Shown one piece after another: positions 3,001-18,174 of a stretch of DNA of 27,212 nucleotides. Positions within the stretch are counted from its first letter, which is position 1; each line of letters starts with the position of its first letter. Location of the stretch: positions 1 to 27,212 of IMG/VR virus record IMGVR_UViG_3300005613_000005, one strand, 5' to 3'. Both the position numbers and the translations under genes were made by a program. The notes under the pieces are model-generated. The model did no database searches and was not told the origin of the DNA. It saw only the letters and a program-made list of their open reading frames with translations. Source of the DNA: a virus. Taxonomy: Duplodnaviria > Heunggongvirae > Uroviricota > Caudoviricetes.

Positions 3001-5202
3001 AGGAAGTACCATGTTCAACACGGGCGTTCCGCCTGACAGAGACGTAAAAGTTATATCTTGGTCAGCACCGTTGGTCGTGTTGGTTATGCGATCCGTATCA
3101 TCAAGAAGTTTTTGTATAGTTTTATCTTGGGCTTTATCAGCTATCATAGCTGATAACTTAGATGCCCTTTCAGTTAAGTTATCAGTAACTGAACAATTGT
3201 AGTTGTGCATTCCGTCGAGCGCGTCAAAACTACCCGTTATCCTATATTCAGGATATGTTTCTGTGTCAGCTAACATGCCGACATAGTTCATCAAGCTGTT
3301 ACTTTCACTCTCACCAATATCTATATCCTGACCACGAGTAAGCTTAACAATGCCTGATTCAGAACGAACGTTTATTCGTACTAATGTCGCTGTGCCAGAT
3401 GATGCGGCACTGTAGTTACTTGCTACCGGAAACGTAAAAGTAGTTGCCCCGGTAACGTTTATCTGATGTGTTCCATCGTAGTTATTTATATTAGCGTCTA
3501 TCAGTATAGACTGATTATTTTCAAAATTATGGTTTGCTGACTCATATTCAAGACCTTGTGCATTTACTCTAGCTTTGGTAGTACAAGTAGCGTAATATCC
3601 AGGACATGCTGCTTCGTCTGTTGTTGCTGCCGTGTTTATGTAGAACACGTCCGCGTCAATTACTTCAACCTCGTACGTGTCATCATAATTAACACTTCCC
3701 GATATTGTTATTCGATCTCCGTCTGCAAGTCCGTGACCTACGTGTTCGCATCGGGCAGTAGTGCCGTCACCTTCAGTTATGTCTATAGATAATGTGGTAG
3801 TTGCTATAGAATCTATTGCCATTATGGTATCTGATCTCATGGCCAACCACATCAAATCACCTTTTAGATCTTCAAGGGTGCCGTTTTCTGAGCGTCCTGT
3901 AAATTGAACGTCACTGGTTTCATATATGCCTTGCGTGTACACGCCGTACGCTGATTCTGTGGTACCAGGATACGCGCTACTTATGGTAATAGACTGTGCT
4001 AGTGCTGGCGTAGCACCAGGTGAACCACCATTAAGTGATCCATTAAACCACTCTATCCTGCGATAGTAATGTTTAGGGTCGGATTTTTTCTTAACCCAAT
4101 CACCTTTTTGTAGATTAGCAAAATCGCCTACGTTACCGTTGACGTAAGTCTTACCGTTGTCCCATTCTATGGTCGCTACTGGCGTTATTATGTCAGTGTC
4201 CTTGTTGAACTCGATATACATAACATCATCGTCGTCTAACGTTTTGTTACCGGCTCTTATCACGATGTCCCGGTCGTCGTATATTGACTGTATCAGTATA
4301 TCTTCGGTCCACGTTAGCTTGCCGGCCGTTGATGAATCGTGCTGCCATTGTCCTTTAGATTTTATAGTGGTTGCCTGAGAAACTTCAAATAAGTCATATA
4401 TACCTAGACCAGCATCCTCGTACCAATACGTAGTGCCACCAAGTTCTAATAACTTGGTCATGACCACGTCCATCCACTCTTTGAGACTTTCTATATTTTT
4501 ATCGCCGCCTTCAAACGGATTAGGATCAAGCGCCGATGACATGGTTGTTGGAGGTTCAGATCTAGCATAGGATGAACTCGGTTCATTTCTAAAACTGTAG
4601 GTTGAAAACGGATCTGGACTCAGCCCACCAGTTCCTAAACGATACATTAAGTTGCGGCAATCTTCTATAGAATCTATAGTGGTAGCACCTACTACAACCT
4701 TAGCAATTGGAATAGTATTGTTAGGAAAAGATGATATAGATACGTTTATCTCAACTTCTAGTACAGATTCAGTATTTATGTCCTGTGTAAACTCACCGCC
4801 AGCTCCGCCGTCGATATCGGGATCCCAAAAAGCACGAGTATCTCTAGATACTTCAAACGTGTCAAATGTTAAATATACGTAGTTAGTGGCATTTTTACGT
4901 AGTTCCGGTACTAATGGCTGCGCATATTCATGGCCTTCTTCTAATCCGTGGTAGAAAGAACCAGTATCAGACCCTGGAAACCATACCACTGAATCATGTA
5001 TATTCACCGATATACTCTGACTGTTGATGGCATCACTTGGATTATCAACTTCAAATCCTTTTAAGATGTAGGGTTGATCATCGCCTATTAAACCCTTGAT
5101 AAAATATTTGAAATCTCCAGCAGTATATGAGTCAAAACTTAAAAAATCTGGTAAGTCAATACGCTCAGCAGACGCTATTAATAATCTTCCAAGAACGGCC
5201 AA
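1..5202 (-). CDS. Long modular tail fibre / receptor-binding protein, 3'-partial (>=1734 codons, continues past base 1); not in the supplied ORF track
   Basis: Translated by hand: TTG at 5202-5200, 5 nt after AAGGAGG. Begins MAVLGRLLIASAERIDLPDF. I found no in-frame stop down to base 1. Contains four ~110-aa repeats (..W....LTF/W..D..........L.DGQ.AY+.+DR...F+IA.R), two HGL..GD.I.I.G..NY-type beta modules (~3400-3760), an SKSADYTITDTDG..TMALPTAAD..R.IEFIKTD module (~300-545), and a distal DVK...GGTFTSGSWQTRVLNT..NQFTLAAGVY domain like the C-terminal domains of phage fibres. It is the last gene after the baseplate genes. Confidence 0.85.
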   Translation of the reverse strand, partial: MAVLGRLLIASAERIDLPDFLSFDSYTAGDFKYFIKGLIGDDQPYILKGFEVDNPSDAINSQSISVNIHDSVVWFPGSDTGSFYHGLEEGHEYAQPLVPELRKNATNYVYLTFDTFEVSRDTRAFWDPDIDGGAGGEFTQDINTESVLEVEINVSISSFPNNTIPIAKVVVGATTIDSIEDCRNLMYRLGTGGLSPDPFSTYSFRNEPSSSYARSEPPTTMSSALDPNPFEGGDKNIESLKEWMDVVMTKLLELGGTTYWYEDAGLGIYDLFEVSQATTIKSKGQWQHDSSTAGKLTWTEDILIQSIYDDRDIVIRAGNKTLDDDDVMYIEFNKDTDIITPVATIEWDNGKTYVNGNVGDFANLQKGDWVKKKSDPKHYYRRIEWFNGSLNGGSPGATPALAQSITISSAYPGTTESAYGVYTQGIYETSDVQFTGRSENGTLEDLKGDLMWLAMRSDTIMAIDSIATTTLSIDITEGDGTTARCEHVGHGLADGDRITISGSVNYDDTYEVEVIDADVFYINTAATTDEAACPGYYATCTTKARVNAQGLEYESANHNFENNQSILIDANINNYDGTHQINVTGATTFTFPVASNYSAASSGTATLVRINVRSESGIVKLTRGQDIDIGESESNSLMNYVGMLADTETYPEYRITGSFDALDGMHNYNCSVTDNLTERASKLSAMIADKAQDKTIQKLLDDTDRITNTTNGADQDITFTSLSGGTPVLNMVLPGSDDAVYKQVLTLNGTLSLTANQIAYIEVDRNDAKTWANLAAVTVADIGGTDVTFPINENVFVIATRLAGNDVWLWDGTNVPIGTTPTPEHLTDIINEDRNASLIKGGTWTWDIAAPNQLSFTADAYVQLPGLADTCNTIQQSTQSPIVLASDGQCAYITLNRDSSIVPSNRTVNITAIESIPNTEDTFIIARRINNDVIVEDNNTMPYEYSSNIRGTALESLVDRIQAHTDAIGDEQEDRSAFLRSDDVVVWDGADLTFSSDLELKIINTKSGTATTHTVLQAGSPISLTDGQIAYVDIDRTTDENVSVTIVASLPAQSQANKDIIPLFQRIDAGGAGYLHIPLHKQVLEPGQSVRLGASGSGGGEGTAFGLKLDELPFRCGFKDTFDNQDLIEITDAASDAATTASYSAANKAYSIEYDTDQGAGSLSNMAGAAANITWTGTPNFTVAVGDVVFGMIGGNLEVRKIVTVNSQTDVDIESTFSANLNTSTYAGVSQKIQTKDGMFYYDSSDTESRPSGELVGHLALTLIDNGAVDTVDHTEEPDWLTPQAADIVLKENGGDLYETTVSSITDSDTFVLADTTGFGGDGDGYIIRPLTQYIINYNDSGWSGDVDVAYTSITAPDLAANWANEYGYTREQNFANEQTVQTIQGTAGAHFFIRFFANKATGKGNVTLYEYDSAFYEESDYNNGGIHNQAYGRTDGAGTEINCAITTPSNTRVTFTDDFPSFVSGVNSGNPFGDLEVYLDGKEIPRYVDGTLTPNANYTEDPNGGYIELDSDYSGSSLSISVKRRIGTNDTSDDNSTNITQIKSGFLNNAASKSADYTITDTDGYSLIFCTNSADTADVTMALPTAADNENRVIEFIKTDSTTYNVVVDGEGAETISGCTTIALDCQYARLKIISDGSNWQMLDRFFTDTVYLKDVKPNNNVGGTFTSGSWQTRVLNTTENSQTWCSLSSNQFTLAAGVYKILAKAPAWDVSRHKCKIYNISDSSDEIIGTSE

Positions 5203-5778: not shown

Positions 5779-8019
5779 TTAACCGGGATCTACTCCGGAT
5801 CTATAAACATCTAAAGTCGCATATAGTTGCTCCGGATACCTAACTAAAAATTCAACGAAAATACCGACACTCTTGACTTCTCTGATGATATCTTGTAGTA
5901 TTTCTCTTGCGGCTGCTGTATCAGTAACGTAAAACGCATATTCACTTCCATCACCGCTCATAGCATGCGCTCCGCGTTGGTTTATCATGGTGATCGAAGA
6001 TCCACTACCGTGATCGTATTGAAAAACATAAGCAGGATCAAGGGCTATGGAATTGCTAGACGGTTTATATAGATACCTTATCGGTCCTTCTTCTTGTTCC
6101 GTCCCAAAATCAAATATGACCTCGCCTCCGGCTTCTGGTATCGTATTGATTCCTAGTTCGAGTATCTTTTTGATCTGACCAGCGCTTATGTCTTCTGCTG
6201 TTAGACCAGTATACGAAGATAATACAAACAGTGCCTCTTCATCCCATATATATGGACCTATAATCTCTGTATCTTCAGCTGCCTGTGAATCTTTTAGATA
6301 TAGTTTTGAACCAGAAGCAGCAAGACCAGCACGTTCTACCCGCACGGTTCCTGTTGAACCAGTGCTTAAATCTTCACCGCGTGCATAGCACTTAAATTCG
6401 GTAGTATTCACTATCTCAAATATTTCCCAACTACCATCCATCTGCACAGCTTCTGACCACCATGTGGGCGATGTATCCGGTTGATGGTTTAAGTTTCCAG
6501 CTTGCAATGACCTGTATATCAGATCATCGTAGTTGACCAGATCACCGGCCGCGTACGTAGTACCAGAATTCCAAGTATCTGTCACGGACGTACCGTATAT
6601 GATCGCGTACTCACCTACTGAATAACCGTGTGCTGAAGCTGTTGTAACCGTTAATATTTTTGATACACGATCGGCCGAACTTATGTTAAACTGATTCAAA
6701 CTAGATAACTCAGGTAAGTTAGGTGAAATGCCTGTCAACGTGTTGGAACTTTTTCCAGTGTAAGTATATCTGGTAGCAAATCCTTGTATGCGACTGTTAG
6801 TATTCTTTGATACAGTAACATCTTCATAGACGTTCAAGTAACGAGTTTGTATAGTTTTAGCTTGTTCTAAAACAAAAGTTCCCGAAGTTGGCCACGAACT
6901 AGCATCTTCAAGTGTCAATGAAGTATCACTGTCGCGATTGGTCATTACCCCGACCAGACCGTTTATGTGTGCTGATCCCTGCAACGATCGTCTTACAACT
7001 GGAGGAGTAGTTGGCATCTCTACTGTTATCTCACCTGGTTGAGTTTCCCAAGTTATTGCTCTACGATCCTCTTTGTATATGACAGACTTGAACGGCCGTA
7101 TAAACTTAACATCTCGATCAGAAGATTGTGTATAGCTTCCAGGAGTTGAGAATGTGTTCTCAAATACTATCTTATTTTCACTTACGATAACCTGATCTAT
7201 AATAAAAGATCCGACGTTGTCCGTCAAATTGTTTATGATTATATCGCCAGTTTCTAGTTGATCTAGACCAGGACTATTTCCTCCGACGTGTTCCATGGTT
7301 GTCGTATAACCAACTTTAGTTATGTCCCATTGGGTATCGTTTCCGGTTCCAGCATCAGATATGAAACCGTTGAATTGTAGAGCGATATTGCCTCTACCAC
7401 CCGCCATTTCTACCGATCCTTTAGATCCTATTGTGTTGGTAAACAATCGAACGGTATCTTCTTGAGTAACACTACTTGAAAACACAACGGCAAAACTGCT
7501 TGTGGCCTGTCTGTTTATAGCGGCCGCAACTTCTTCTGCAGTAGCAGCTGCTATATTAGTAAAGTCTTCAGTGTTGAATTCAATTCGTTCAGTTTTGTCG
7601 CCGTCCACGTCATATTCTAGTTCCCAACCATCTTCTAAGTTATAAGGAGATGCTTGTTCTGTAACTATAAATGACGTAGTTGATTCTTTAAAAAAGAACA
7701 GATCAAGTAAAGTATCTATTATTAACTTAACTTGCTTTGGTTGATACGCTAATATAGGAACGTATTTGCGAAAAGTCGGATCGTCCATGCCTATAAAACG
7801 TGGTCGATCTACTTTAACATTAGCTCCCAATCTGTCAATATAGGGACGAGACGCTGTTTTCATAAAAAATTGCTTGCGTACTTCTTCCAATAAATTGTGT
7901 AAGTATTCGTCTTCAGTTCCTATAGCTTCTAACAACGCTGACCAATTAATATTAGACTTAGTGCGCATAAATTTGGGCATCTGGTCATGTAAGCGATTTA
8001 CTTTTGTTTTATTGTCCAT
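5779..8019 (-). CDS. Baseplate wedge protein (P2 gpI / T4 gp7-like N-terminus) extended with accessory beta modules and a CBM5/12-like insert (746 aa)
   Basis: N-terminal TASRPYIDRLGANVKVDRPRFIGMDDPTFRKYV resembles the gpI-type A.G..LD.+G...G+.R....DD..+R motif. It follows baseplate J. It contains WNSGTTYAAGDLVNYDDLIY...N.NHQPDTSPTWW (CBM5/12-like). Confidence 0.72.
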   Translation of the reverse strand: MDNKTKVNRLHDQMPKFMRTKSNINWSALLEAIGTEDEYLHNLLEEVRKQFFMKTASRPYIDRLGANVKVDRPRFIGMDDPTFRKYVPILAYQPKQVKLIIDTLLDLFFFKESTTSFIVTEQASPYNLEDGWELEYDVDGDKTERIEFNTEDFTNIAAATAEEVAAAINRQATSSFAVVFSSSVTQEDTVRLFTNTIGSKGSVEMAGGRGNIALQFNGFISDAGTGNDTQWDITKVGYTTTMEHVGGNSPGLDQLETGDIIINNLTDNVGSFIIDQVIVSENKIVFENTFSTPGSYTQSSDRDVKFIRPFKSVIYKEDRRAITWETQPGEITVEMPTTPPVVRRSLQGSAHINGLVGVMTNRDSDTSLTLEDASSWPTSGTFVLEQAKTIQTRYLNVYEDVTVSKNTNSRIQGFATRYTYTGKSSNTLTGISPNLPELSSLNQFNISSADRVSKILTVTTASAHGYSVGEYAIIYGTSVTDTWNSGTTYAAGDLVNYDDLIYRSLQAGNLNHQPDTSPTWWSEAVQMDGSWEIFEIVNTTEFKCYARGEDLSTGSTGTVRVERAGLAASGSKLYLKDSQAAEDTEIIGPYIWDEEALFVLSSYTGLTAEDISAGQIKKILELGINTIPEAGGEVIFDFGTEQEEGPIRYLYKPSSNSIALDPAYVFQYDHGSGSSITMINQRGAHAMSGDGSEYAFYVTDTAAAREILQDIIREVKSVGIFVEFLVRYPEQLYATLDVYRSGVDPG

Positions 8020-8635
8020 CAGTATCTCCCTTACTTAAATTGTCCTTAGCCCACATAGGCTGTAAATTACTGTAATGACAAGCTTTTTTAAGCTGTTCTC
8101 TGTCACTTAAATCAAAACTAGATAAAGGAACAATATGATCTAAATGCCAGCCATCCTTAGACCAATTATCCCACGTCATCCCTGATTGCCATTTACATTC
8201 AATGTATTTTTTAAAATCTTTTATGTTACAACCTAAATCTTTTATTGCTGAACCTGTTTTCTGATTGTTTTTAAGGGCGATATTAAGCCGTGATCGAAGT
8301 ACTGAACGTATTTTGTATTGAATATCGTTCTTATAACGTATTTTATTGTGATTACTATTATTTTCTTTCCATTTTTTCTTAGCCAAAATAATTTTATCTT
8401 TGTTCTGCTTACTCCATTTCAATTGTAATTTGCGTTTGTATTCTCGATATTGATGAAATTCTTCTTCAGTAAAATTATCACGTCGACGCTTATTATTAAT
8501 TTTATTGCGCTTTCTTCTTATATCCCGTTGTTCCTGACTCATGTTTTTCCAACGAAATCTTTCACGGCACGATGAACAACAAAATTTACTTCGTTGTCTA
8601 TTATTAATTTCATTACATTCCAAGCATCTTCTCAT
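8009..8635 (-). CDS. Free-standing HNH(N) homing endonuclease 2 with N-terminal CxxC...KFCCxxC finger (208 aa); overlaps the wedge gene start by 11 nt
   Basis: WDNWSKDGWHLDHIVPLSSFDL...CHYSNLQPMWAKDNLSK, same family as HNH1. AAGGA SD overlaps the J stop. Its last codons contain AAGGGAG, which serves as the SD of the next gene. Confidence 0.88.
   Translation of the reverse strand: MRRCLECNEINNRQRSKFCCSSCRERFRWKNMSQEQRDIRRKRNKINNKRRRDNFTEEEFHQYREYKRKLQLKWSKQNKDKIILAKKKWKENNSNHNKIRYKNDIQYKIRSVLRSRLNIALKNNQKTGSAIKDLGCNIKDFKKYIECKWQSGMTWDNWSKDGWHLDHIVPLSSFDLSDREQLKKACHYSNLQPMWAKDNLSKGDTDGQ
8040..8092 (+). repeat. Dispersed direct repeat, copy 2 (53 nt)
   Basis: ttgtccttagcccacatagg-ctgtaa-attactgtaatgacaagcttttttaag. 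The three differences from copy 1 are synonymous. Confidence 0.95.
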
Positions 8636-8644
8636 TATTTATCC

Positions 8645-11600
8645 TTACGCTATACTAATATCACTAGTTTCAATGAACGCTTTCTCGATATCATCGATAG
8701 ATATCCTTTCGGTACTAGGATCAGGAATATTAAATGTGGCAGCAGCAACACCGCTGACGTCCATTATGGCCGCTATTATCTCAGATAAGATAACATCATT
8801 TCCAACACCTAAACCATTTACGTAGTTGATGATAATAGTTTTTATCTCGTTAGATATCTCTCCTAAGTTAACACCTTCATCAGTGGTTATATCAATGGAC
8901 ATCTCAACTCTTCTAATAAGAGGAGGTAATATCTCGATGACACCACCTACAGCACGACGTCCAGGATAAGTTTCTGAATCAGGCTCATAACCGTCTATGG
9001 TACGCTGAACTGTTCTCAACAATCCTGTGTAATACAAATATCCATCTACACCAGAAACGACCTCAGTCGAGTATCCTAACTTACCAACTGACTGCATCTC
9101 AGATCCGTTAGATTCAGAGAACTTATAAGAGTGATCTGACGGCGTCACGTACACTATCCTTCTAGTATCGTCGAAACTATCTAATATTATATGCTCGACA
9201 CGTCTGTAAGATGAATAAGCATTATCGGCATGTTCTGTGATTATAAAACCAGTAGGATCTACGGACATCAACTTGTTTGTTTCTACAGTACCACTTGCGT
9301 TCAACACACGAACATACGGTTTATAGTCAACACTTGTTCCAAGACCAACTATATCAAATGTTCCAGTATTTGAAACGTTAAACCAACTATTGTTAACTAC
9401 ACTTGAAACATACAGCGAATCATCGGTACGAACACTGTCGCTCTCTAATATCCTAAGATCACCGATTGATTTTAAAACTACGCCCGCGTTCACACCGGTA
9501 ATTTGATTGAATTTAACACCGGTTGAAGAACCTGTAGTGCCACCATATGGACTGCTTAAAGTAACGGATGTTGCTGTAAGTGGATTTCCTGTATTAAAGC
9601 TAGAAACTTGAGCCCATAAAGTCCCACTATCCTCTGCTTTTTTAACAGAGTCACCAACTATCAAGTTTTCAAACGATCCAGCAGCTCCCGTTATCACGAG
9701 CGCGTTCTGAGTCCAAGATACAGCTGTTCCTAAATTATTAAAAGGTATGTTATTTAAGTTAACTTCTTCAGCCGCATTAGTGTTTTCATATATCAAACTG
9801 ATATTATCAACACCGCGCACCCTAAAACTACCGTTGTTATTCGAGTTAAAAGTTGTTCCACTGATTATCAAGAGATCGTCTATCGCCACACCACAATCCT
9901 TAAAACGAGGTGGAGCACCACCGGCCCACGATAGTCTAACTAAATTTTTAAAGCCAAGTATCTCAACTTTATAACGCGTTCTATCATGATCTATAGTAGA
10001 CGAAAATTGACTATCAGCATCTATAGCCGCCTGCACAACGCCGGCAACCGTAGCCGCATCATCGCCCGTTGCAACGCCCGTAATTTCTACAGCACGGTCA
10101 CAGGCAGAAGCACCAGCCGGAATCCCTGTTCCTGAATCATCAACGTCAAACCAAAAACCGACAGAACCATTTTCATCGTATAATACAAAATATTTAGCAT
10201 CAAGTGAACCAGCTACGTCTGCTACAGTGATAATCTCAGTTACTCTGCGAATATTAGTTCCACCTTCTTGAAAAACACTTACTGTAAAACCAGAATCTCC
10301 AGCACCTGGAGTACCAGCACCACCAACATACTCATTAATGGCCACTACTAAATCTTGATTTTTACGAATTATAGTACCGGTGTCGTAGGTTGCATCAGTA
10401 ATACCAGAAGTTGCATAAGTAAAAGTATTATATCCAGTTACGCCAACAACAGTTCCTATTCCAGAACCTGGATCTGAAGGTAAAGCGTTATTGTTTAATA
10501 ACTCAAAATTATCTCCAACCTTAAGATGATGCGGATCAGTTGTTGTAGCCGTAGATACGTTGGCGACATCTGTCACCGAAACGTTGTTTCTCGCCATATG
10601 AGAAACGTTCCACTCTATTATAGGAGTTGGGCAGATTTCTACTGAACCACTAATTCCTATAGTAGTAGCACTCATTATTTCACCGTACGGGTTAACAATT
10701 TCAAAATATCTGTTTGTATCATCAACGGCGACTATTGGAAATCCAGCAACTTTATCATCACCAGTTCCACTAGACATATTTCCTGCACTCCAACCTGAAA
10801 ACGTACCTGATACAAACAACAAGTCACCAGCAGCAACATCATTTAACGTTGCTCCTGACGTCTGCGTTATTCCCCACACATTGTTGAAGTCAGAATCTAA
10901 TGACAGAGTATTAACTAATTTCTGAATTATATCGTTTACACTATCGCCAGTTGCTATATCAACTTCGATTTGATAGTCAGTTAAGCTATAAGGAACATTG
11001 GCAGCAGGAGGAGTTCCATCAGCATCGATGTCAAACCATATGCCAAACAGTTCATTAGAACCAGGACCATCGATCAAGAAATAATCAGCTTGCGTTGGAA
11101 AATCGCTCAATGTTAAGTTAAACTGCTGTGGATTTGATCCATCGCCAGCATGAACGCTAATAACTTCTAGATTAGTAGCAGTTCCACCAGAATCTGCTCT
11201 GTAATTAGTGGCTGCGTACACATCAGGAGCACCATTACTGTCTGCTGTGATCTGAGCATATGATCCTGAATCAGCATGAGTCCACCTAAAGACAGTTCCT
11301 GTTGGTCTGGCATGTGCTGCTGACACGTCTGTTATAGTTACCTTAACGTACGGAGTAAAATATATGTTTTTCGGATTATACATATAATCGTAGTAGTCAC
11401 CACTTGTATTTACAACGTCGATAGAATCTGTACTTGATAACCGGTTATATCGTGCTGCACCTGCTGAGTTAACAAACTTAACGATATCACCTGGGTTTAT
11501 AGTATCTGGATATGAACGTATTCTTGTTGCCATGAAATTTGAGCCACTTTCACTTATTATTTCAGAATCAGCTATCAACGAGAATGAAGCGCTATTGGCA

Positions 11601-14600
11601 CGTCCGCCAACTACTTCAATTTTTCCACCTGATCCTAGTTCTTCAGAAACTATCTGTACTTTTTTATTGTCTCCAGCGATATTTATGTCAGATACTAATG
11701 GTAACTGTGATAATGCTTTATGTACTAGATGATGTCTGACGTTCTGTATAGTAGTCGGTATCAATTTAAAATATTCGCCGGTTTCTGTATCATCATAGTT
11801 CGGTGTAGTGTCCATCTGATATACGGTTGGTTCAACACCCGGTAACAGTAAAGGGACCTTAAATGTGAAGTTAGGATTAGAGTTTGAAAAGTTAAGTACC
11901 CGATTTTCACTATCGTATAAATTAACATGATCGTGATTGCCGCTTGTAGGATCTGTATCGTGTCCGTACGCAACAGCAGCTGTAGTCTCATCCCTTGTTG
12001 CTAATTCTATAGTTTTAGAATCGTCGCCTATGGCAACAGCAATCATCAGATCTTCAGCGTTTATCGTATCTACTATATCACTCACTGCAGTTCCTTCTAA
12101 AGGAAATATAGTTATCGCTGTTGGAACTGAGATAATCTCATCAGAAGCATTAGATCCGTTAACAGACGTAGCGGTAGTAAAACCAGAAGTACCATTAGAA
12201 GGCGCTGGTCTACCACCGACATTAGCATCAGTAACCGTTATGACGTTGGCTCCTGGTGCTGGTGCTGAAAATTCAGAATCAGCGTTGATAGCAGCGCGAA
12301 CTGCTAGTGCAACGTTGTTGGCACTCATACCAGAGGTGATAGTAGTAACTGCTATTGATCTGTCAGCACCGTGAAGTGGTTCTGCGGTGCCGGTATTATC
12401 AACATCCATCCAGACGGCTACAGAACCGTTCTGATCTTGTAGTACGAAATATTTACCATCAAGAGATGTAGGATCAACACCTGCGACCTGTTCTGTGATA
12501 CTAAAAGCTGTAGTTCCTGCATTACCCTGTGTACTTAATTCATACGCAGTGTGCGTGACATCAAGTTGATCTGTAGTTGCACCAACTGCTGCCGCTGAAA
12601 ATTCAGGATCAGAGCCTATAACAGTTATTAAACGATCTCTAACATTTTCTTCAGTGTCTGCCGCTACGACGGTCGTTATCTCAATGGACCTTGAACATCC
12701 GTGAGCAGGTTCAGCTGTTCCTGAGTCGTCAACGTCTATCCAAAACGCTACTGATCCGTTGGAATCATATAGTTTAAAATATTCACCGTCTAAAGTACCG
12801 CCGTTTTCACCGTTGAGGTCGATACGATCTACACGCTGTGTTCCTGCTCCATCAGCGATAGTAGTTACTGTTGTCACTTCAGCAGCACCAACTCCGGTAG
12901 CTGCGCCATCAGGATTATAGACTTTTATGAATTGGTTAGCCGGAACAGCCCAGTTACCAACCTCTGTTATTATCAATTGCCCGCGGTTGCTGCTAGAAAT
13001 TCCAGAGTTACTGAGAGCGCTGAATACGTCGCCGGCGACTACGCCGTTAGCTGACAGATCACCCGAATTTGTAAAAGTATATTTAAAGATATTACTTCCT
13101 AAATCACTTACAGCTATAGTTGTCGTACCGGTGATCCCAGTTGTTCTACCAGATCCGCTTCCAAAATAATACTTGTAGGTACTTGCTACTGGACTATTTT
13201 CATGCACCGTTGTCGCATCTGTGTCTGGAACAGTTGGATATTCAATTGAAAAGATTATTTTTTCTCCGATTGGTCCAAACTGCGCGGCACGCAGCATCAT
13301 CTTACCGTCACTGCTGGCAACGCCGTTGGCACAGTACCAGTTTCTAGCTCTGAACCACATCTTATAGTCAGCGAACTCCGTGTTCGTTAAGGTTTTGCTC
13401 CACACCGTTGGTGTTCCAAAATCAACACCGATCTCATTGTCAGAGTCGTCGGCGGATAAGGCATAGTTGCTAGGAATAAATGTTCCGCCTTGTGAACCGG
13501 CATTAACACGGCCGGTTCTTGCGATGTTAACGTCAACGGTTTTATTGACTGAATCATCGTCTAATATGGTAACGATACTGTCTTCTGCTGAAAACCGTAA
13601 GTTTTCAACGATTTGAAATTCGTCTCGGGCAATATGCGCCATCGTTGTTGCGGGTTTATTATAGCGAGTTCCTACTCTATCACCAGATAATATCTGCTTT
13701 ATTGCCTTCCATTGTTTTTTATTAGCACCTTTAGTAAAATAGATAGCATCATCATAGTTAACAAATGCATCAGCTAATACATCAGTAGATTCTAGTATCT
13801 CTGCATAGGCATCTATACCTTCTGTACCTATAGTAGCATCAGCTGCTAAATTACCTCGTCTGTCACTGTATACGTATCTATCTAACCACGTATATGTGCT
13901 AGTAGGTGTTGTACGTTTAAACCACGTTATCATCTCACCTTCAGTTTTTCTATTAGCAACGTGCGGAGGATTTCCATCTTCAGACGCGTTTCCTGTAGCA
14001 AACAATAAAGTTGCATTTCCAAGTGATACTGGAATAGCGATACTTCCGCCATCTTCTGTTGTAGAAGTTATCTTAACTTTATTAGTCTTATATATAGACG
14101 CTATCACGTTTTGAGTGTTATCGTTTATAGAATCGATAAGATCTTCGATAGCTTCTGATGCGGGAGTCGTAGCCATCGATCCTAGCCAAATTTGAGGATA
14201 AGCGTCAGCGTAGAACGCTTGCATATCTTCGGGGGCTAAAACTGAGATAGGACCTTCTGCTGTTATATCATCGTTCAATACTTCTATGTAAGTATCTGTT
14301 CCCGCACTTGTGTGGTTACCTTTTGCAACAACTTTAAACAGGCCTGTATTGCTGTTACTTAACCAAGAGCTTGTGCGCGATGCGATGTAGATGTAATCGT
14401 GTGTCGTAGCATGCACGTTTCTGAAAGTTGATATTGAACTTGACATTATCCTCATCACGCCGTCACCTTGATCTGATATCGTGATGGTTGATCCAACCGC
14501 GGCTAGACCACTGGAACGAACTATAACTTCATCAGCGTCTGCTACTATGACCAACGTTGCTGGTGTTCCGTTCGCATCTGCAGACACGTTAAAATTACCT

Positions 14601-16519
14601 GTTGTAGTAGCTTCTGATATTATAGCTCCTTTAGCATCGTCAGTTCCCGCAGATATGGTATCATCTTCTGCTATATCGGTGAGTATCTTTATGTTTCCGT
14701 TCTGTCTATTAAGTTCAAAATTAGAACTTTGTCCTTCTGCTTCAATATCTAAGTCAGAAAACCATATGTTAAGTAAGTCACCACCTAAAATTTCAAGTGA
14801 TGAATTATCACCTATTTGATTAGACGATATACGCATTGCTCCAGATGACAGAGCAGAAGCTGTGATACCGGCAAATTTACTGTTAAACGCTGTTACCCAA
14901 TCACTCAACGTCAACGCGTTCCATGATGCAGCACCAAAATCTGTTAAAGTAAAAGTCTGATCTTGAGCAGGTGTTCCATCAACAGAGATCACCACGTTAC
15001 TGTCACTATTGACTCCCCAAGTTGAAAATATCGTGGTTATCAAAGTAGCGGCCTTTTCTTGTTCTTTAAGCAACGTATTGTTTTGATACAGTTTAATATA
15101 TGAAAATTCATTTGTCGGAAATTTTAATATTGAATTGGCATATAATGATGCGTTTTCTGTACTACTTCTAGGAGGAACTTGTATTATCTCAGCGTCGTAC
15201 GCAACAGGATAAATAAGTAAACGTGTTGAATTCGTCGTCATGCGAATCTTAAACAGCGTTGATTGATCGTTAACCATGGTAACTATTTCAGGTAAGGTAG
15301 CGGCTGCTATGTTAGCAAAATCACTAGAACTAAAAGAGATCGTTTCTTCATCGTCATCTACACGGATCCTCAATGTCATACCATCTGTTAACTCATAAGG
15401 ACCATCGGCCGCGTTTACGACCTGAGGTCTTGGCAGTGGGTAGTTGGCTAATTGAAGATATTCTTCAGTACCTGAAGCATTGGCTAATAAGGTATCTACT
15501 GATTGCCCTACGTATGATGGCTCAAACCCACCGCCATCGTCAATGTATATAATAGAAGGCTCGCCAACCGTTACTGGTTCGGCGATAACAGCCGAGGCTA
15601 CTTGTTTATTGTCGTCGATGTCAGACACACCGACGATAGCAGCTAATATAGCAGACCGTGTTCCTCTAGCTAACGTACTTGAATATGATTTTATCCTTTC
15701 GCGCAGTTCAAAATCCGATTCCATATCGCGACCATTTGTCAACGGTACAGAATTGGTTATTGTAGCAGTAGGAAAAGGTAAAGTTGTAAAGTTAGTAATA
15801 GTATTAATACCAGCATTACCTTGTGTTCCAGCCTTTAATGCTATAATTTCTACGTTGTCAACGTGATCATCACCAGCTGGTATGACTGCATCACGAAGTG
15901 TATTATATTTGACGGCTGGCGATTGGTTATTTGCGGGTATGTTAATTTCTGTACCTGCTGATATCAATCTATCTGTTGTTCCTTGAGCATCGACAACACG
16001 TTCAGAAATTAAATGATCTTTTTCAAGCGCTGATGAAAGTTGAATACTGTAATAAGTAACATGGTTAGTTATTGAGGTATACGATATTGGTCCTTCAAAA
16101 TTAGCAGTTTCTTGTCCTATATATAATGTTCCGGTAGGTTCCCAATCAGAGGCGTTATTAACATATAATACGGTTGATCCAGCAATAGGAGCTGGTTTAA
16201 TAGGAAACAATGTTGTACTTCGTTTTGTTATACTAGAATCACTGATAGTAACAAAACCTGATGCTCTTATAGCATTTATTCTTTCAAGACCAAAGTCAGC
16301 AGCTCTAGTATCTAGATCAGCATTTTTAAGCATATCAATATTTAATAACTCTAAAATACTTAAAATAGCTACGTTATTATCAAAGTCGTTTTGTGCACAG
16401 GCCTCTAATAATGTTAATAACGCTGATCCAGTATTAATATCGTTAAGCACTGATTCGGCAATCACTTTCCGAATCATGTTTCCTAACATCTGGTTATATG
16501 ATTTAATTTCAATGCTCAT
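8645..16519 (-). CDS. Giant baseplate J-like wedge protein (P2 gpJ / Mu gp47 / T4 gp6 family) with ~2200-aa modular insertion (2624 aa)
   Basis: J-type N-terminus (KSYNQML..MI......D.N.GS..TLLEA.A...LD..AADFGL.R..A..A.G.VT), J core (ESDFELRERIK.Y...L.RGT..AI..A...V) at ~15530-15725, and J C-terminus (V..SI.IT.D.GVNL.EI..EIK..I.NY+N.LGVG.DVI.SEIIAAI..V.GV) at ~8650-8925. It follows the gp25-like gene. Confidence 0.9.
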   Translation of the reverse strand: MSIEIKSYNQMLGNMIRKVIAESVLNDINTGSALLTLLEACAQNDFDNNVAILSILELLNIDMLKNADLDTRAADFGLERINAIRASGFVTISDSSITKRSTTLFPIKPAPIAGSTVLYVNNASDWEPTGTLYIGQETANFEGPISYTSITNHVTYYSIQLSSALEKDHLISERVVDAQGTTDRLISAGTEINIPANNQSPAVKYNTLRDAVIPAGDDHVDNVEIIALKAGTQGNAGINTITNFTTLPFPTATITNSVPLTNGRDMESDFELRERIKSYSSTLARGTRSAILAAIVGVSDIDDNKQVASAVIAEPVTVGEPSIIYIDDGGGFEPSYVGQSVDTLLANASGTEEYLQLANYPLPRPQVVNAADGPYELTDGMTLRIRVDDDEETISFSSSDFANIAAATLPEIVTMVNDQSTLFKIRMTTNSTRLLIYPVAYDAEIIQVPPRSSTENASLYANSILKFPTNEFSYIKLYQNNTLLKEQEKAATLITTIFSTWGVNSDSNVVISVDGTPAQDQTFTLTDFGAASWNALTLSDWVTAFNSKFAGITASALSSGAMRISSNQIGDNSSLEILGGDLLNIWFSDLDIEAEGQSSNFELNRQNGNIKILTDIAEDDTISAGTDDAKGAIISEATTTGNFNVSADANGTPATLVIVADADEVIVRSSGLAAVGSTITISDQGDGVMRIMSSSISTFRNVHATTHDYIYIASRTSSWLSNSNTGLFKVVAKGNHTSAGTDTYIEVLNDDITAEGPISVLAPEDMQAFYADAYPQIWLGSMATTPASEAIEDLIDSINDNTQNVIASIYKTNKVKITSTTEDGGSIAIPVSLGNATLLFATGNASEDGNPPHVANRKTEGEMITWFKRTTPTSTYTWLDRYVYSDRRGNLAADATIGTEGIDAYAEILESTDVLADAFVNYDDAIYFTKGANKKQWKAIKQILSGDRVGTRYNKPATTMAHIARDEFQIVENLRFSAEDSIVTILDDDSVNKTVDVNIARTGRVNAGSQGGTFIPSNYALSADDSDNEIGVDFGTPTVWSKTLTNTEFADYKMWFRARNWYCANGVASSDGKMMLRAAQFGPIGEKIIFSIEYPTVPDTDATTVHENSPVASTYKYYFGSGSGRTTGITGTTTIAVSDLGSNIFKYTFTNSGDLSANGVVAGDVFSALSNSGISSSNRGQLIITEVGNWAVPANQFIKVYNPDGAATGVGAAEVTTVTTIADGAGTQRVDRIDLNGENGGTLDGEYFKLYDSNGSVAFWIDVDDSGTAEPAHGCSRSIEITTVVAADTEENVRDRLITVIGSDPEFSAAAVGATTDQLDVTHTAYELSTQGNAGTTAFSITEQVAGVDPTSLDGKYFVLQDQNGSVAVWMDVDNTGTAEPLHGADRSIAVTTITSGMSANNVALAVRAAINADSEFSAPAPGANVITVTDANVGGRPAPSNGTSGFTTATSVNGSNASDEIISVPTAITIFPLEGTAVSDIVDTINAEDLMIAVAIGDDSKTIELATRDETTAAVAYGHDTDPTSGNHDHVNLYDSENRVLNFSNSNPNFTFKVPLLLPGVEPTVYQMDTTPNYDDTETGEYFKLIPTTIQNVRHHLVHKALSQLPLVSDINIAGDNKKVQIVSEELGSGGKIEVVGGRANSASFSLIADSEIISESGSNFMATRIRSYPDTINPGDIVKFVNSAGAARYNRLSSTDSIDVVNTSGDYYDYMYNPKNIYFTPYVKVTITDVSAAHARPTGTVFRWTHADSGSYAQITADSNGAPDVYAATNYRADSGGTATNLEVISVHAGDGSNPQQFNLTLSDFPTQADYFLIDGPGSNELFGIWFDIDADGTPPAANVPYSLTDYQIEVDIATGDSVNDIIQKLVNTLSLDSDFNNVWGITQTSGATLNDVAAGDLLFVSGTFSGWSAGNMSSGTGDDKVAGFPIVAVDDTNRYFEIVNPYGEIMSATTIGISGSVEICPTPIIEWNVSHMARNNVSVTDVANVSTATTTDPHHLKVGDNFELLNNNALPSDPGSGIGTVVGVTGYNTFTYATSGITDATYDTGTIIRKNQDLVVAINEYVGGAGTPGAGDSGFTVSVFQEGGTNIRRVTEIITVADVAGSLDAKYFVLYDENGSVGFWFDVDDSGTGIPAGASACDRAVEITGVATGDDAATVAGVVQAAIDADSQFSSTIDHDRTRYKVEILGFKNLVRLSWAGGAPPRFKDCGVAIDDLLIISGTTFNSNNNGSFRVRGVDNISLIYENTNAAEEVNLNNIPFNNLGTAVSWTQNALVITGAAGSFENLIVGDSVKKAEDSGTLWAQVSSFNTGNPLTATSVTLSSPYGGTTGSSTGVKFNQITGVNAGVVLKSIGDLRILESDSVRTDDSLYVSSVVNNSWFNVSNTGTFDIVGLGTSVDYKPYVRVLNASGTVETNKLMSVDPTGFIITEHADNAYSSYRRVEHIILDSFDDTRRIVYVTPSDHSYKFSESNGSEMQSVGKLGYSTEVVSGVDGYLYYTGLLRTVQRTIDGYEPDSETYPGRRAVGGVIEILPPLIRRVEMSIDITTDEGVNLGEISNEIKTIIINYVNGLGVGNDVILSEIIAAIMDVSGVAAATFNIPDPSTERISIDDIEKAFIETSDISIA
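9995..12793 (-). repeat. Four copies of a ~72-aa protein repeat inside the J protein (approx. 12580-12793, 12248-12463, 10884-11100, 9995-10204)
   Basis: LDGEYFKLYDSNGSVAFWIDVDDSGT / LDGKYFVLQDQNGSVAVWMDVDNTGT / ADYFLIDGPGSNELFGIWFDIDADGT / LDAKYFVLYDENGSVGFWFDVDDSGT, each followed by I.+..+..G..A..V...+..AI..DS.F. Confidence 0.9.
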
Positions 16520-16569: not shown

Positions 16570-18174
16570 TTACGTAACATTTACTACAAAACTAATGGGT
16601 ACTACTGCACTACCACCGGATAGTTTAACTTCTAGTGTTATCAAAAACATAGTCCCAGGTATCCTGCTATCTGAAGTGTTGAAATACTCTACATTTAATC
16701 GTTCAACTCTGTCATAACGAGTATCATTTTCTATATTAAAATTTATAGATTCTATTATAGCTTGTCTTATAGCAGTTATATCAATATTTTTATTACCTTG
16801 TATTGCTATAAGACCATATTCGGGATGACGTGATAATTCTCCTGATTCTGTTGCTAATTTTAATTTTATGGCTTGAATAGCATTGTCTAATCCATAACTT
16901 AATTGGACATCACTTGTCGCAGTAAATATTATATCGCCGTTTTCATCTAACATAAGGTCAACTTTTGCTTGTTTTTCATCAGCAGCACTTGCTTGTAAAA
17001 ACCATGGTATATCTTTATAAGTTTCTGGATTAATAGGATCATTAGAAGGTATCAACACATAAAATCCACTATTGATAGTATTGCGTTTATATATTCGGAC
17101 GTTGGCATGATCTGTTACTGTATATTTACTTAGATCATCGTCTCCATTTAACTCTACAATAATTTCTCCACTTACAGGAACTTCATATATGTCTACAATT
17201 TTCCTCTGATCAGGATTGACTTCTGTGTCAGAGCGCAATATAACTATTTGATCTATATATAATTTTTCAATGTTTGGATTGCCGTCAGCATCTGTTGCAT
17301 CTAGGTTTATCTTGTTGCCATTAGCATTTGATAATAAATCTATGGTACTACCAACCTCATCAATATAAGGTGGTCTTAGACCATTAGCAACAGCAATTTC
17401 CATCCATTTATCGGCGTCATTAAGATACCTTTGGGCTAATGTTTTTAAATCTTCTCCGTAGTTCATCTTTACCAGACGCCCAGATGAGTATAGTTCAAAG
17501 GGTATATCTGGATTATTAGCATTAGCTTTAAGAAGAGCAAACGGATCGATACTTACTGTGTCTAGCGACCTGATATTAGCTAATATGAAATTGATTCCAG
17601 ACATAGCATCTTGATATAATTTCATAGTTTGTACGTCACTTATTGATGCTTCTGTTTGTTCAGCAACAGATGATCGATTATAAACGCTGTTATAACTATT
17701 ATCAGAAATCCCAACTACATCGGCTTTTTCATCGCGTACAGAACGAATGTCATTCTTCATAGATAAAAATTGACTTTTTGTATATGCCCTGATCTTTGCT
17801 ATCCTCGTATTAATTATATCTTGTTCATTGTTATTTATGGGAAATATGTCTAGTGGTAATAATTTCCATACGTCATAGTAACGATAAAAAACAGCTTTAT
17901 CAGAGAAAGGATTAAGTTGTGATGATGTCAATCGTTGGATCGCTATAAATTCGGTAAATTTATCTATTTTTTCTTTTGTCTGATCTGGATTATCTGCGTC
18001 TTCAGCGTACCCATAAACGCGATCTACTAAAAAAGACCATTTATCGCGGAATTGTGGCCAACGAAGTGCTATGAGATCTGGTATATCAGCCATTACTATA
18101 GTATCGCTGCTTTGTAATTTAAGCCATAAACTTACATCAGCGATATGTTGATATGCGGTTATAGCAGTTGCCAC
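16570..18174 (-). CDS. Baseplate wedge / sheath-initiator: LysM-like domain fused to C-terminal gp25/gpW-like domain (534 aa, GTG start)
   Basis: GEDLKTLAQRYLNDADKWMEIAVANGLRPPY is LysM/gpX-like. C-terminal DLML.ENGD.......QLSYGLDNAIQAI..KL.TE.GEL..HPEYG...I.....D.R...V is gp25-like. GTG lies 5 nt after AGGAGG. Confidence 0.78.
   Translation of the reverse strand: MATAITAYQHIADVSLWLKLQSSDTIVMADIPDLIALRWPQFRDKWSFLVDRVYGYAEDADNPDQTKEKIDKFTEFIAIQRLTSSQLNPFSDKAVFYRYYDVWKLLPLDIFPINNNEQDIINTRIAKIRAYTKSQFLSMKNDIRSVRDEKADVVGISDNSYNSVYNRSSVAEQTEASISDVQTMKLYQDAMSGINFILANIRSLDTVSIDPFALLKANANNPDIPFELYSSGRLVKMNYGEDLKTLAQRYLNDADKWMEIAVANGLRPPYIDEVGSTIDLLSNANGNKINLDATDADGNPNIEKLYIDQIVILRSDTEVNPDQRKIVDIYEVPVSGEIIVELNGDDDLSKYTVTDHANVRIYKRNTINSGFYVLIPSNDPINPETYKDIPWFLQASAADEKQAKVDLMLDENGDIIFTATSDVQLSYGLDNAIQAIKLKLATESGELSRHPEYGLIAIQGNKNIDITAIRQAIIESINFNIENDTRYDRVERLNVEYFNTSDSRIPGTMFLITLEVKLSGGSAVVPISFVVNVT

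What the first reader, a model, noticed from the sequence alone, without database searches (positions are those of the whole stretch)
8645..16519. 2624-aa baseplate J: a ~2200-aa multi-module insert between the J core and the J C-terminal domain
Seen: J-type N-terminal/core motifs end near 15520 and the J C-terminal domain starts near 8925, with ~6.6 kb of in-frame repeated beta-rich modules between them. Known: P2 gpJ is ~300 aa and T4 gp6 is 660 aa, and both form the wedge ring. Inference: the insert loops out of the ring as a large decorated skirt, giving a baseplate architecture in which the wedge itself may carry adhesion or scaffolding domains normally supplied by separate proteins. I cannot tell whether relatives are already in metagenome databases.
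Basis: partly seen in the sequence, partly recalled or inferred. Interest (0 to 1): 0.75.

Follow-up and report, generated by a model that had tools for sequence, protein, structure and literature searches.

The report
Giant split baseplate J wedge protein
An uncultured 176-kb tailed phage makes its conserved baseplate "wedge" protein eight times larger than usual by inserting about 20 small surface-type domains into it, a design shared by hundreds of metagenomic phages and the cultured Myxococcus phage Mx1, with no published description found.

Summary
Observation confirmed. The ORF at 8645-16519 (-) encodes a 2624-aa, 279-kDa protein. Residues 1-345 and 2471-2624 are the two colinear halves of one baseplate J/gp6-type wedge protein, and both halves hit the same solved 350-aa J chains. 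Between them lie about 2125 residues with no Pfam or PHROG family.

It is not a mis-assembly. More than 300 full-length homologues exist. Among the 146 newly returned proteins in the top-150 list of 50%-identity representatives, 98 carry both J halves, with inserts of 669-2251 aa at the same site. The only cultured relative found is Myxococcus phage Mx1 (1925 aa).

AlphaFold models and profile comparisons show about 20 small domains from three duplicated module families:
- FliD/flagellin-outer-domain-like alpha/beta modules.
- Small beta-barrels, one of them endosialidase-barrel-like.
- A roughly 100-aa "R" module resembling tail-sheath insertion domains.

A backbone (D1-D2-X1-E2) is conserved across the superfamily, while R and barrel modules vary in number and position. 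R also occurs in two other proteins of this phage.

The reading as a peripheral, surface-binding arm is plausible but untested. First readers of this scan noted the same architecture in four other genomes. Verdict: a new variant of a known kind, of moderate interest.

The parts
8645..16519 (-). Whole gene: 2624-aa (279 kDa, pI 4.3) giant baseplate J-type wedge protein, stop codon included
15485..16519 (-). J N-terminal core, residues 1-345
   Evidence: Pfam PF04865 positions 27-131 and PHROG 6 positions 159-286. Profile hits to solved J chains 8v3w_E, 9g8s_C, 9euf_C, 9ndy_H and 9ki1_H.
9110..15484 (-). Insert, residues 346-2470 (about 2125 aa, 226 kDa): about 20 small domains
   Evidence: No Pfam or PHROG family. 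AlphaFold models cover 330-1440 and 1430-2475. Conserved at 40-60% identity across 123 homologues.
8648..9109 (-). J C-terminal domain, residues 2471-2624
   Evidence: PF04865 positions 178-255, PHROG 6 positions 281-405, precomputed PF26079 Baseplate_J_C. Hits to 9euf_C 249-317, 8v3w_E 241-339 and 9zd7_0 390-484.
15095..15442 (-). Module D1 (res 360-475): alpha/beta domain like flagellin outer domains and FliD. A related module occurs in the 746-aa neighbour.
   Evidence: VIA Z 10.0 to 9n8h_A, rmsd 2.5, 91 aligned. Sequence sharing with the neighbour.
14720..15067 (-). Module D2 (res 485-600): FliD D2/D3-like, like the insertion domain of the XM1 tail sheath
   Evidence: VIA Z 11.2 to 7kh1_A6 (29% id, 105 aligned) and Z 9.5 to FliD 6kty. 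hhalign D2~E2 80%, D2~D5 68%.
14180..14527 (-). Module D4 (res 665-780): small beta-barrel, member of the barrel family D4~D7~E4~F1~F3
   Evidence: hhalign probabilities 90-97%. VIA Z 6.3 to phi92 endosialidase 255-338.
13259..13594 (-). Segment X1 (res 976-1087): rich in invariant residues but modelled with low confidence. Conserved in most giant-J lineages, including Mx1.
   Evidence: Invariant columns D1025...P1095. pLDDT 30-40. Module map.
12200..12844 (-). Modules R1 and R2 (res 1226-1440): tandem copies of the ~100-aa R module (motif YFxLxDxxGSVAFWxDVDxxGTxEP)
   Evidence: hhalign 100%. VIA Z 10.0 to A-1(L) sheath 91-184.
11600..11824 (-). Module E2 (res 1566-1640): alpha/beta module present in nearly all giant-J lineages
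10856..11170 (-). Module R3 (res 1784-1888): third R copy, present in about 57% of close homologues
10346..10600 (-). Module E5 (res 1974-2058): beta-barrel like the barrel domain of phage endosialidases and E1 FCCH. In tandem arrays of up to 6 in other lineages.
   Evidence: VIA Z 8.9, rmsd 1.9, 74 aligned, 26% id to 4hiz_A 257-339. Module map.
9980..10336 (-). Module R4 (res 2062-2180): fourth R copy, a lineage-specific gain seen only here and in P0005
9110..9976 (-). Modules F1-F4 (res 2182-2470): beta-rich, high-confidence block. F2 is shared with the fibre gene.
16570..18174 (-). Upstream neighbour, 534 aa: gp25-like sheath initiator/wedge subunit with a long N-terminal extension
   Evidence: PHROG 975 and 120. 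9euf_L ORF61 hit.
5779..8019 (-). Downstream partner, 746 aa: presumed I-type third wedge subunit with a central CBM5/12. Homologous to the gene that follows J in Mx1.
1..5202 (-). Fibre gene (at least 1734 aa, runs off the contig start) sharing the F2 module with J

Best explanation
The gene encodes a genuine J/gp6-type baseplate wedge protein. Its fold is interrupted once, between the parts that correspond to residues ~204 and ~245 of ordinary 350-aa J proteins, by about 2125 residues. The insert is a chain of about 20 small, separately folding domains made by duplication of three module families. These are FliD/flagellin-outer-domain-like alpha/beta modules, small beta-barrels (one close to the endosialidase barrel domain), and a ~100-aa 'R' module resembling tail-sheath insertion domains. 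Some domains appear to be nested inside others. A backbone (D1-D2-X1-E2) is conserved across the whole giant-J superfamily. The R and barrel modules come and go between lineages. Inferred mechanism: the J halves build the normal wedge and iris ring, and each J sends out one long arm. The conserved backbone forms the rigid part of a peripheral baseplate. The variable outward modules bind host-surface polymers, much as decoration and adhesion domains do on sheaths, capsids and flagella. With the usual two J per wedge, this gives 12 arms, about 2.7 MDa of insert. The arm leaves the fold in the trifurcation/dimerisation region, which moves when the iris opens. Displacement of the arms on the cell surface could therefore feed directly into triggering. 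Shown: identity, split site, module families, family-wide conservation. Inferred: copy number, outward location, binding, and the trigger role.
For: Identity and split: Pfam and PHROG coordinates are colinear across the insert. The N-half and C-half profiles hit the same solved chains: 9euf_C at 95-204 and 249-317, 8v3w_E at 105-180 and 241-339, 9g8s_C at 93-192 and 264-364. Gene order is gp25-like, J, I-like, fibre, as in P2, Mu and phage 812. Real and constrained: at least 309 homologues of 1443-4592 aa (the length range searched), of which the 120 listed are 2350-2730 aa, on contigs up to 178 kb. The insert is 40-60% identical across 123 proteins and has many invariant residues. The profile search found 1827 representative clusters, and 98 of the 146 new proteins in the top list carry both J halves with inserts of 669-2251 aa at one site. 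Modules: models have pLDDT 74 and 77. D2 scores Z 11.2 to the XM1 sheath insertion domain, R1 scores Z 10.0 to the A-1(L) sheath domain, and E5 scores Z 8.9 at 26% identity to the phi92 endosialidase barrel. hhalign defines the three families. Backbone versus variable modules. R copy number is 2, 3 or 4. Use on surfaces: R also occurs in two other proteins of this phage, in a 1222-aa sheath protein and in about 48 small metagenomic proteins, two of them with FN3. One relative carries an Ice_binding domain between R1 and R2. The neighbouring I-like protein carries a CBM5/12. Published structures show (J)2-I wedges and an iris that opens by movement between the trifurcation and dimerisation domains (XM1 preprint 10.1101/2021.12.18.469577; phage 812, PMC13433997).
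Against: There is no experimental data on any member: no virion proteomics and no EM of the Mx1 baseplate at useful resolution. Fold similarities of small domains at Z 8-11 show shape, not function. No ligand-binding residues were tested. The exact sub-domain of J that hosts the insert could not be fixed, because published domain boundaries were available only for XM1 gp16. Stoichiometry is assumed from other phages. In solved baseplates, peripheral parts hang on the single-copy I/gp7-type subunit rather than on J, so twelve 226-kDa arms would be an unprecedented load. Two invariant-rich segments (X1, X2) are modelled poorly, so part of the insert is structurally unexplained.
Confidence: 0.6

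Rival explanations
1. The insert is purely architectural. It builds a large outer baseplate or spacer that positions the fibres, and has no binding function of its own. The variable modules only adjust size.
For: The conserved backbone and the high conservation of the whole insert. Compact prediction of residues 1645-2475 (pTM 0.68), reproduced in an independent BFVD model of a 35%-identical relative (TMq 0.66). Separate fibre and I-like genes with carbohydrate-binding modules already exist next door.
Against: Rapid gain and loss, and tandem amplification, of R and E5 modules between close lineages. The same R module is used on other virion-type proteins and on a sheath. A foreign Ice_binding domain has been taken up. 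All of this is typical of exposed interaction modules.
Confidence: 0.25
2. The protein is functionally the single-copy, gp7-like outer subunit of the wedge (6 copies), not the two-copy J subunit, despite its J-family sequence.
For: T4 gp7 and the phage 812 arm scaffold are the large, multi-domain, outward-facing wedge subunits (PMC13433997; established T4 knowledge). gp6 and gp7 share the core fold.
Against: The protein matches Baseplate_J and the two-copy wedge proteins of solved baseplates. A separate gene in the I position follows it and is conserved with Mx1.
Confidence: 0.08
3. The giant ORF is a polyprotein that is cleaved after translation, so the modules act as separate baseplate proteins.
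For: None direct. It is only that the domains are strung like beads (pTM 0.37 for residues 330-1440).
Against: The J fold needs both ends of the chain. No protease or intein family was detected in the insert. The apparent nesting of domains is incompatible with simple cutting.
Confidence: 0.04
4. Assembly or annotation artefact: two or more genes joined by mis-assembly or by a sequencing error.
For: None.
Against: The same uninterrupted architecture occurs in hundreds of independently assembled contigs from several sources and in the finished genome of isolate Mx1.
Confidence: 0.01

Closest known systems
Myxococcus phage Mx1 'baseplate protein J-like protein' (WNM70274.1, 1925 aa; OR576727.2)
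   Same: Same split-J design and same insertion site. Homologous over residues 4-1180 (26% identity) and the last 160 residues (31%). Shares the backbone modules D1, D2, D3, X1, D7 and E2. It is followed by a homologue of the 746-aa I-like gene. Genome size is similar (170 versus 176 kb).
   Different: It is 700 aa shorter, has no R module, and has a different set of distal modules. Its I-like partner carries Kelch repeats instead of CBM5/12. The genome announcement does not mention the baseplate.
Ordinary J-type wedge proteins with solved structures: phage 812 gp116 (9EUF chain C, 348 aa), diffocin TRI-2 (8V3W_E), gp65 triplex 1a (9G8S_C), Mu gp47 (9KI1_H), T4 gp6
   Same: Both halves of the protein align colinearly to them. 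Same gene position after the gp25-like gene.
   Different: They have roughly 40 residues where this protein has about 2125. In those baseplates J only builds the inner wedge and the iris.
T4 gp7 (1032 aa) and the phage 812 arm scaffold protein gp117
   Same: Works like: a large multi-domain wedge subunit from which the baseplate periphery projects (PMC13433997).
   Different: Those are the single-copy third subunit of the wedge trimer. Here the expanded protein is the J-type subunit, and a separate I-type gene is also present.
Insertion domain of the Vibrio phage XM1 tail sheath gp6 and FliD D2-D3 / flagellin outer domains
   Same: Module D2 superposes with Z 11.2 (29% identity, 105 residues), and with FliD at Z 9.5. 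The XM1 authors also noted the FliD D3 likeness of that domain (10.1101/2021.12.18.469577).
   Different: There it is a single decoration on the sheath or on the flagellar cap. Here several such modules sit in series inside a wedge protein. No FliD or flagellin sequence family is matched.
Beta-barrel domain of phage endosialidases (phi92 4HIZ, K1F 1V0E/3JU4)
   Same: Module E5 superposes at Z 8.9, rmsd 1.9 A, 74 residues, 26% identity. There is also a weak profile hit.
   Different: No sialidase propeller is present. Whether the sugar-binding site is kept was not tested.

Membership tests
Baseplate J / gp6 / Mu gp47 wedge protein family (Pfam PF04865, PF26079) | Sequence match to the family model above the curated cut-off | tested here: met
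   PF04865 scores 49.1 bits against a cut-off of 21.1. All 19 relatives tested also match. Precomputed PF26079 Baseplate_J_C is recorded on the window's own protein and on most homologues.
Baseplate J / gp6 / Mu gp47 wedge protein family (Pfam PF04865, PF26079) | N-terminal and C-terminal parts of the fold both present and colinear | tested here: met
   Profile positions 27-131 then 178-255. PHROG 6 positions 159-286 then 281-405. The same solved chains are hit by both halves at consecutive positions.
Baseplate J / gp6 / Mu gp47 wedge protein family (Pfam PF04865, PF26079) | Gene sits between the gp25-like sheath-initiator gene and the I-type wedge and fibre genes | tested here: met
   The 534-aa gp25-like gene lies upstream. 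The I-like 746-aa gene and the fibre lie downstream. The order is the same in two other assemblies.
Baseplate J / gp6 / Mu gp47 wedge protein family (Pfam PF04865, PF26079) | Two copies per wedge forming a (J)2-I trimer, with a ring formed by dimerisation of the C-terminal domains | not testable with these tools
   Needs cryo-EM or virion stoichiometry. Assumed from T4, XM1, 812 and phi92.
T4 gp7-type single-copy outer wedge subunit | Third, single-copy member of the wedge trimer that lacks the J C-terminal dimerisation domain | tested here: not met
   The protein has the J C-terminal domain, and a separate I-position gene exists.
FliD (flagellar cap) D2-D3 / flagellin outer domain | Fold of the alpha/beta domain | tested here: met
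   D2 scores Z 9.5 to 6kty (rmsd 2.4, 98 aligned). D1 scores Z 10.0 to Vibrio flagellin 9n8h_A. This is likeness of fold only.
FliD (flagellar cap) D2-D3 / flagellin outer domain | Sequence membership, including the flanking coiled-coil D0/D1 | tested here: not met
   No FliD or flagellin Pfam family was found in this protein or in 18 relatives.
Endosialidase beta-barrel (sialic-acid-binding) domain | Fold, and conserved sugar-binding residues | tested here: inconclusive
   The fold matches (Z 8.9, 26% identity). Binding residues were not examined. Generic EF-Tu-domain-2 and FCCH barrels score almost as high.

The most novel reading that the evidence does not exclude
In a large, so far unstudied clade of ~170-kb myoviruses (Mx1-like), the universal J wedge protein has taken over construction of the whole outer baseplate. 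It does so through one hierarchical, nested insertion with domains inside domains. Twelve arms per virion act both as multivalent adhesins, through an undescribed ~100-aa R domain with an acidic DVDxSG loop and through endosialidase-type barrels, and as levers that open the iris directly. Receptor sensing and triggering would then reside in one polypeptide instead of the T4-style relay of separate proteins.
Probability: 0.3. Interest if true: 0.7.

Novelty: new variant of a known kind. Interest (0 to 1): 0.55.

Why it matters
J/gp6/TssF-type proteins are the most conserved part of every contractile injection machine, and they are normally small. In solved baseplates the periphery hangs on the other wedge subunit. 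A widespread lineage in which J itself carries up to 2250 extra residues at one fixed site would be a different way to build and possibly trigger a baseplate. It also offers a natural catalogue of small, swappable surface modules, including an unnamed R domain reused on sheaths and other virion-type proteins. Because Mx1 is in culture, the question can be tested directly by cryo-EM and genetics.

Tried and rejected
Complex prediction:
- Complex prediction of the N half (1-350) with the C half (2455-2624) scored 0.31 against a mark of 0.32. That is no verdict and was not used as evidence.

Searches on the insert that found nothing useful:
- Pfam and PHROG scans of four 500-aa pieces of the insert, and Pfam on 19 relatives, gave no family apart from Ice_binding in one relative.
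- A PDB sequence profile of the whole family gave nothing significant inside the insert.
- Foldseek against PDB with the 1430-2475 model gave only low-probability rows. The ESM Atlas shape search was weak, with TM about 0.2.
- The Atlas look-up of the single-R protein P0127 found only unnamed viral clusters.
- Pfam on ten non-J proteins carrying R modules found only one sheath domain.

Sequencing runs:
- The look-up of sequencing runs found only small shares (0.13-0.15) in one study, and no RNA holder is listed. No habitat or expression claim is made.

Literature:
- No paper was found on a giant J protein. The Mx1 genome announcement is silent on the baseplate.

Technical failures:
- Self-BLAST of the whole protein returned only the identity hit. 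It was replaced by a windowed BLAST.

Considered and rejected:
- Mis-assembly, because of the many independent assemblies.
- An intein or mobile insertion, because there is no Hint or endonuclease family and the insert is conserved family-wide.
- A second J fragment from a gene fusion, because the profile coordinates are complementary rather than duplicated.

Not done:
- I could not obtain model coordinates. The nesting of domains rests only on the aligned ranges reported by VIA-align (model 216..1046 with 75 residues aligned; model 9..296 with 72 aligned).
Full report
**The observation**

The minus-strand ORF 8645-16519 is open for 2624 codons. Its start is supported by a conserved N-terminus in homologues.

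Pfam Baseplate_J scores 49.1 bits against a cut-off of 21.1, in two stretches. Residues 176-285 align to profile positions 27-131, and residues 2499-2584 align to positions 178-255. PHROG 6 ('baseplate wedge subunit') gives the same picture: residues 180-342 align to positions 159-286 and residues 2470-2623 to positions 281-405.

Profiles built separately from the N part (1-350) and the C part (2455-2624) hit the same solved J-type chains at consecutive positions:

| Solved chain | N-half match | C-half match |
|---|---|---|
| Phage 812 wedge protein, 9euf_C | 95-204 | 249-317 |
| Diffocin TRI-2, 8v3w_E | 105-180 | 241-339 |
| gp65 triplex 1a, 9g8s_C | 93-192 | 264-364 |

So this is one J fold, split once, with about 2125 residues (346-2470; nt 9110-15484, checked) where ordinary J proteins have about 40.

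**It is real and family-wide**

- The window is the first 27 kb of a 176,243-bp IMG/VR virus record rated complete.
- A word-indexed search restricted to proteins of 1443-4592 aa found at least 309 homologues. The best 120 are 45-70% identical, 2350-2730 aa long, and lie on contigs up to 178 kb from several sources.
- Two independent ENA assemblies show the same order: a ~532-aa gene, the giant J, then a ~710-aa gene.
- Across 123 aligned proteins the insert is 40-60% identical to the query, against 57-74% for the J halves, and carries many invariant residues.
- An exhaustive profile search with residues 330-1440 found 1827 representative clusters at E<=1e-3 and 385 at E<=1e-30.
- Of the 146 proteins in the top-150 list that were new to the session, 98 have both J halves. 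Their inserts range from 669 to 2251 aa, always starting after residue ~350 and ending ~170 residues before the C-terminus.
- Among 50,697 deposited phage genomes only Myxococcus phage Mx1 has a comparable protein: 1925 aa, annotated 'baseplate protein J-like protein'. It is homologous over residues 4-1180 and the last 160.
- UniProt and BFVD hold 'Baseplate protein J-like [uncultured Caudovirales phage]' entries. One is 35% identical, and its predicted model superposes on mine over ~1000 residues (TMq 0.66).
- First readers of this scan noted the same architecture in four other genomes.

Mis-assembly is excluded.

**What the insert is made of**

No Pfam or PHROG family matches the insert in this protein or in 18 relatives. 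The one exception is an Ice_binding domain in one relative.

AlphaFold2 models of residues 330-1440 (pLDDT 74, pTM 0.37) and 1430-2475 (pLDDT 77, pTM 0.68) show about 20 small domains. Structural comparison gave these matches:

| Module | Residues | Best structural match | Score |
|---|---|---|---|
| D1 | 360-475 | Vibrio flagellin outer domain | Z 10.0 |
| D2 | 485-600 | Insertion domain of XM1 tail sheath | Z 11.2, 29% identity |
| D2 | 485-600 | FliD D2/D3 | Z 9.5 |
| R1 | 1226-1345 | Protruding domain of A-1(L) sheath (also PhiTE and Mu sheath proteins) | Z 10.0 |
| R1 | 1226-1345 | T4 gp11 | Z 8.0 |
| E5 | 1976-2056 | Beta-barrel domain of phi92 endosialidase | Z 8.9, rmsd 1.9 A, 26% identity |

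The XM1 authors themselves likened that sheath insertion domain to FliD D3 (10.1101/2021.12.18.469577). For E5, generic EF-Tu-domain-2 and FCCH barrels score only slightly lower.

Profile-profile comparison of the modules defines three families:
- R1~R2~R3, at 98-100% probability.
- The barrels D4~D7~E4~F1~F3, at 90-97%.
- The alpha/beta modules D2~E2~D5, at 68-80%.

Two segments rich in invariant residues (X1, 976-1087; X2, ~1505-1565) are modelled with low confidence. They may order only in the assembly.

Several barrel matches align about 75 residues while spanning model positions 216 to 1046. I read this as domains nested inside domains: roughly 1645-1684 pairing with 2436-2475, and roughly 338-359 pairing with 601-625. 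I could not inspect coordinates, so this is an inference.

**Conserved backbone, variable decoration**

I mapped HMMs of the 24 segments (the 22 insert modules plus the two J halves) onto the 98 split-J representatives, Mx1 and the query. Nearly all keep the order Ncore-D1-D2-(D3)-X1-(D7)-E2-Cterm. The R modules, E5 barrels (tandem arrays of up to six) and D7/F-type barrels differ in number and position.

Among close homologues R occurs in 2, 3 or 4 copies, giving forms of about 2360, 2500 and 2620 aa. The fourth copy (R4) is present only here and in one 58%-identical protein.

The R module is not confined to J. It also occurs:
- Three times in a 543-aa protein and once in a 220-aa protein elsewhere in this genome.
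- In about 48 small metagenomic proteins, two of them with FN3 domains.
- In a 1222-aa tail sheath protein.

J also shares a D1-type module with the 746-aa neighbour and an F2 module with the fibre.

**Context**

- Upstream lies a 534-aa protein whose C-terminal part is gp25-like (PHROG 975 and 120; phage 812 ORF61).
- Downstream, after a 208-aa endonuclease-like ORF (PHROG 1035 'endonuclease VII'; the sequence HLDHIVP suggests an HNH type) that is absent from related contigs, lies a 746-aa protein.
- That 746-aa protein is homologous at both ends to the 'kelch repeat protein' that follows J in Mx1. It carries a CBM5/12 instead of Kelch repeats.
- Then comes a fibre gene of at least 1734 aa.

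This is the W-J-I-H order of P2 and Mu.

**How it probably works**

In solved baseplates two J-type subunits and one I/gp7-type subunit form each wedge. The J C-terminal domains dimerise between wedges to form an iris. The iris opens by movement between the trifurcation and dimerisation domains. Peripheral proteins hang on the single-copy subunit (XM1 preprint; phage 812, PMC13433997).

If the stoichiometry holds here, twelve 279-kDa J chains amount to 3.35 MDa, of which 2.7 MDa is insert.

I propose that the conserved backbone forms a rigid arm leaving the J fold in its C-terminal half. The variable modules, of types otherwise found on exposed sheath, flagellar and tailspike surfaces, would bind host-surface polymers. 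Arm displacement could then act directly on the iris. Only the anatomy is shown. Location, copy number, binding and triggering are inferred.

Rivals, none excluded experimentally except the last:
- A purely architectural outer baseplate.
- A gp7-like single-copy role.
- A cleaved polyprotein.
- An assembly artefact. This one is refuted by the independent assemblies.

**Novelty**

The family is present in public databases and is annotated as J-like, so the gene is not unknown. However, I found no paper or solved structure that describes a J protein with such an insert. It is a new variant of a known component rather than a new kind of system.

Mx1 is in culture, and its adsorption is reported to be improved by 1 mM CaCl2 (PMC6070905). 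That makes the proposal testable.

Noticed in passing
window 8009-8635 (-): A 208-aa ORF between J and the I-like gene matches PHROG 1035 'endonuclease VII' and carries the sequence HLDHIVP, which suggests an HNH type. In two related assemblies J is followed directly by the ~710-aa gene, so this looks like a free-standing homing endonuclease inserted into the baseplate operon.
   Followed up: partly
window 5779-8019 (-); L001 13769-16717: The 746-aa protein after J is homologous at its N end (26-370) and C end (586-732) to the Mx1 'kelch repeat protein'. The middle has been exchanged: CBM5/12 here, Kelch in Mx1. An E5-type half-barrel (448-486) directly precedes the CBM, which suggests a nested insertion.
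   Followed up: partly
G000:C1:99736-101382 (-) = L004 4734-6365 (P0126); G000:C1:116688-117380 (-) = L005 3686-4348 (P0127): Two further proteins of the same phage carry the R module. One is a 543-aa protein with three copies flanked by repeated helical segments. The other is a 220-aa single-copy protein lying among genes with tail-fibre/adaptor-like and 'DNA transfer protein' PHROG hits. Neither has a Pfam or PHROG family.
   Followed up: partly
relative P0019 (2730 aa), between R1 and R2: One homologue carries an Ice_binding (PF11999) domain inserted between the first two R modules. This shows that foreign surface domains are taken up at this position.
   Followed up: no
window 1-5202 (-) and contig end: The fibre ORF runs off the start of the record. 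If the two ends of the 176,243-bp record are joined, the frame closes after four more codons (1738 aa). This hints that the record is a complete, circularly permuted genome.
   Followed up: partly
window 16570-18174 (-): The gp25-like sheath-initiator homologue is 534 aa. Its recognisable gp25-like part lies at residues ~400-497, and a short match to phage 812 ORF61 lies at 238-274. It therefore also carries about 400 extra N-terminal residues of unknown nature.
   Followed up: no
P0244 (1222 aa, metagenomic): A tail sheath protein (Phage_sheath_1 at 1025-1167) from another phage contains R modules at residues 138-378. This is an enlarged sheath decorated with the same domain.
   Followed up: no
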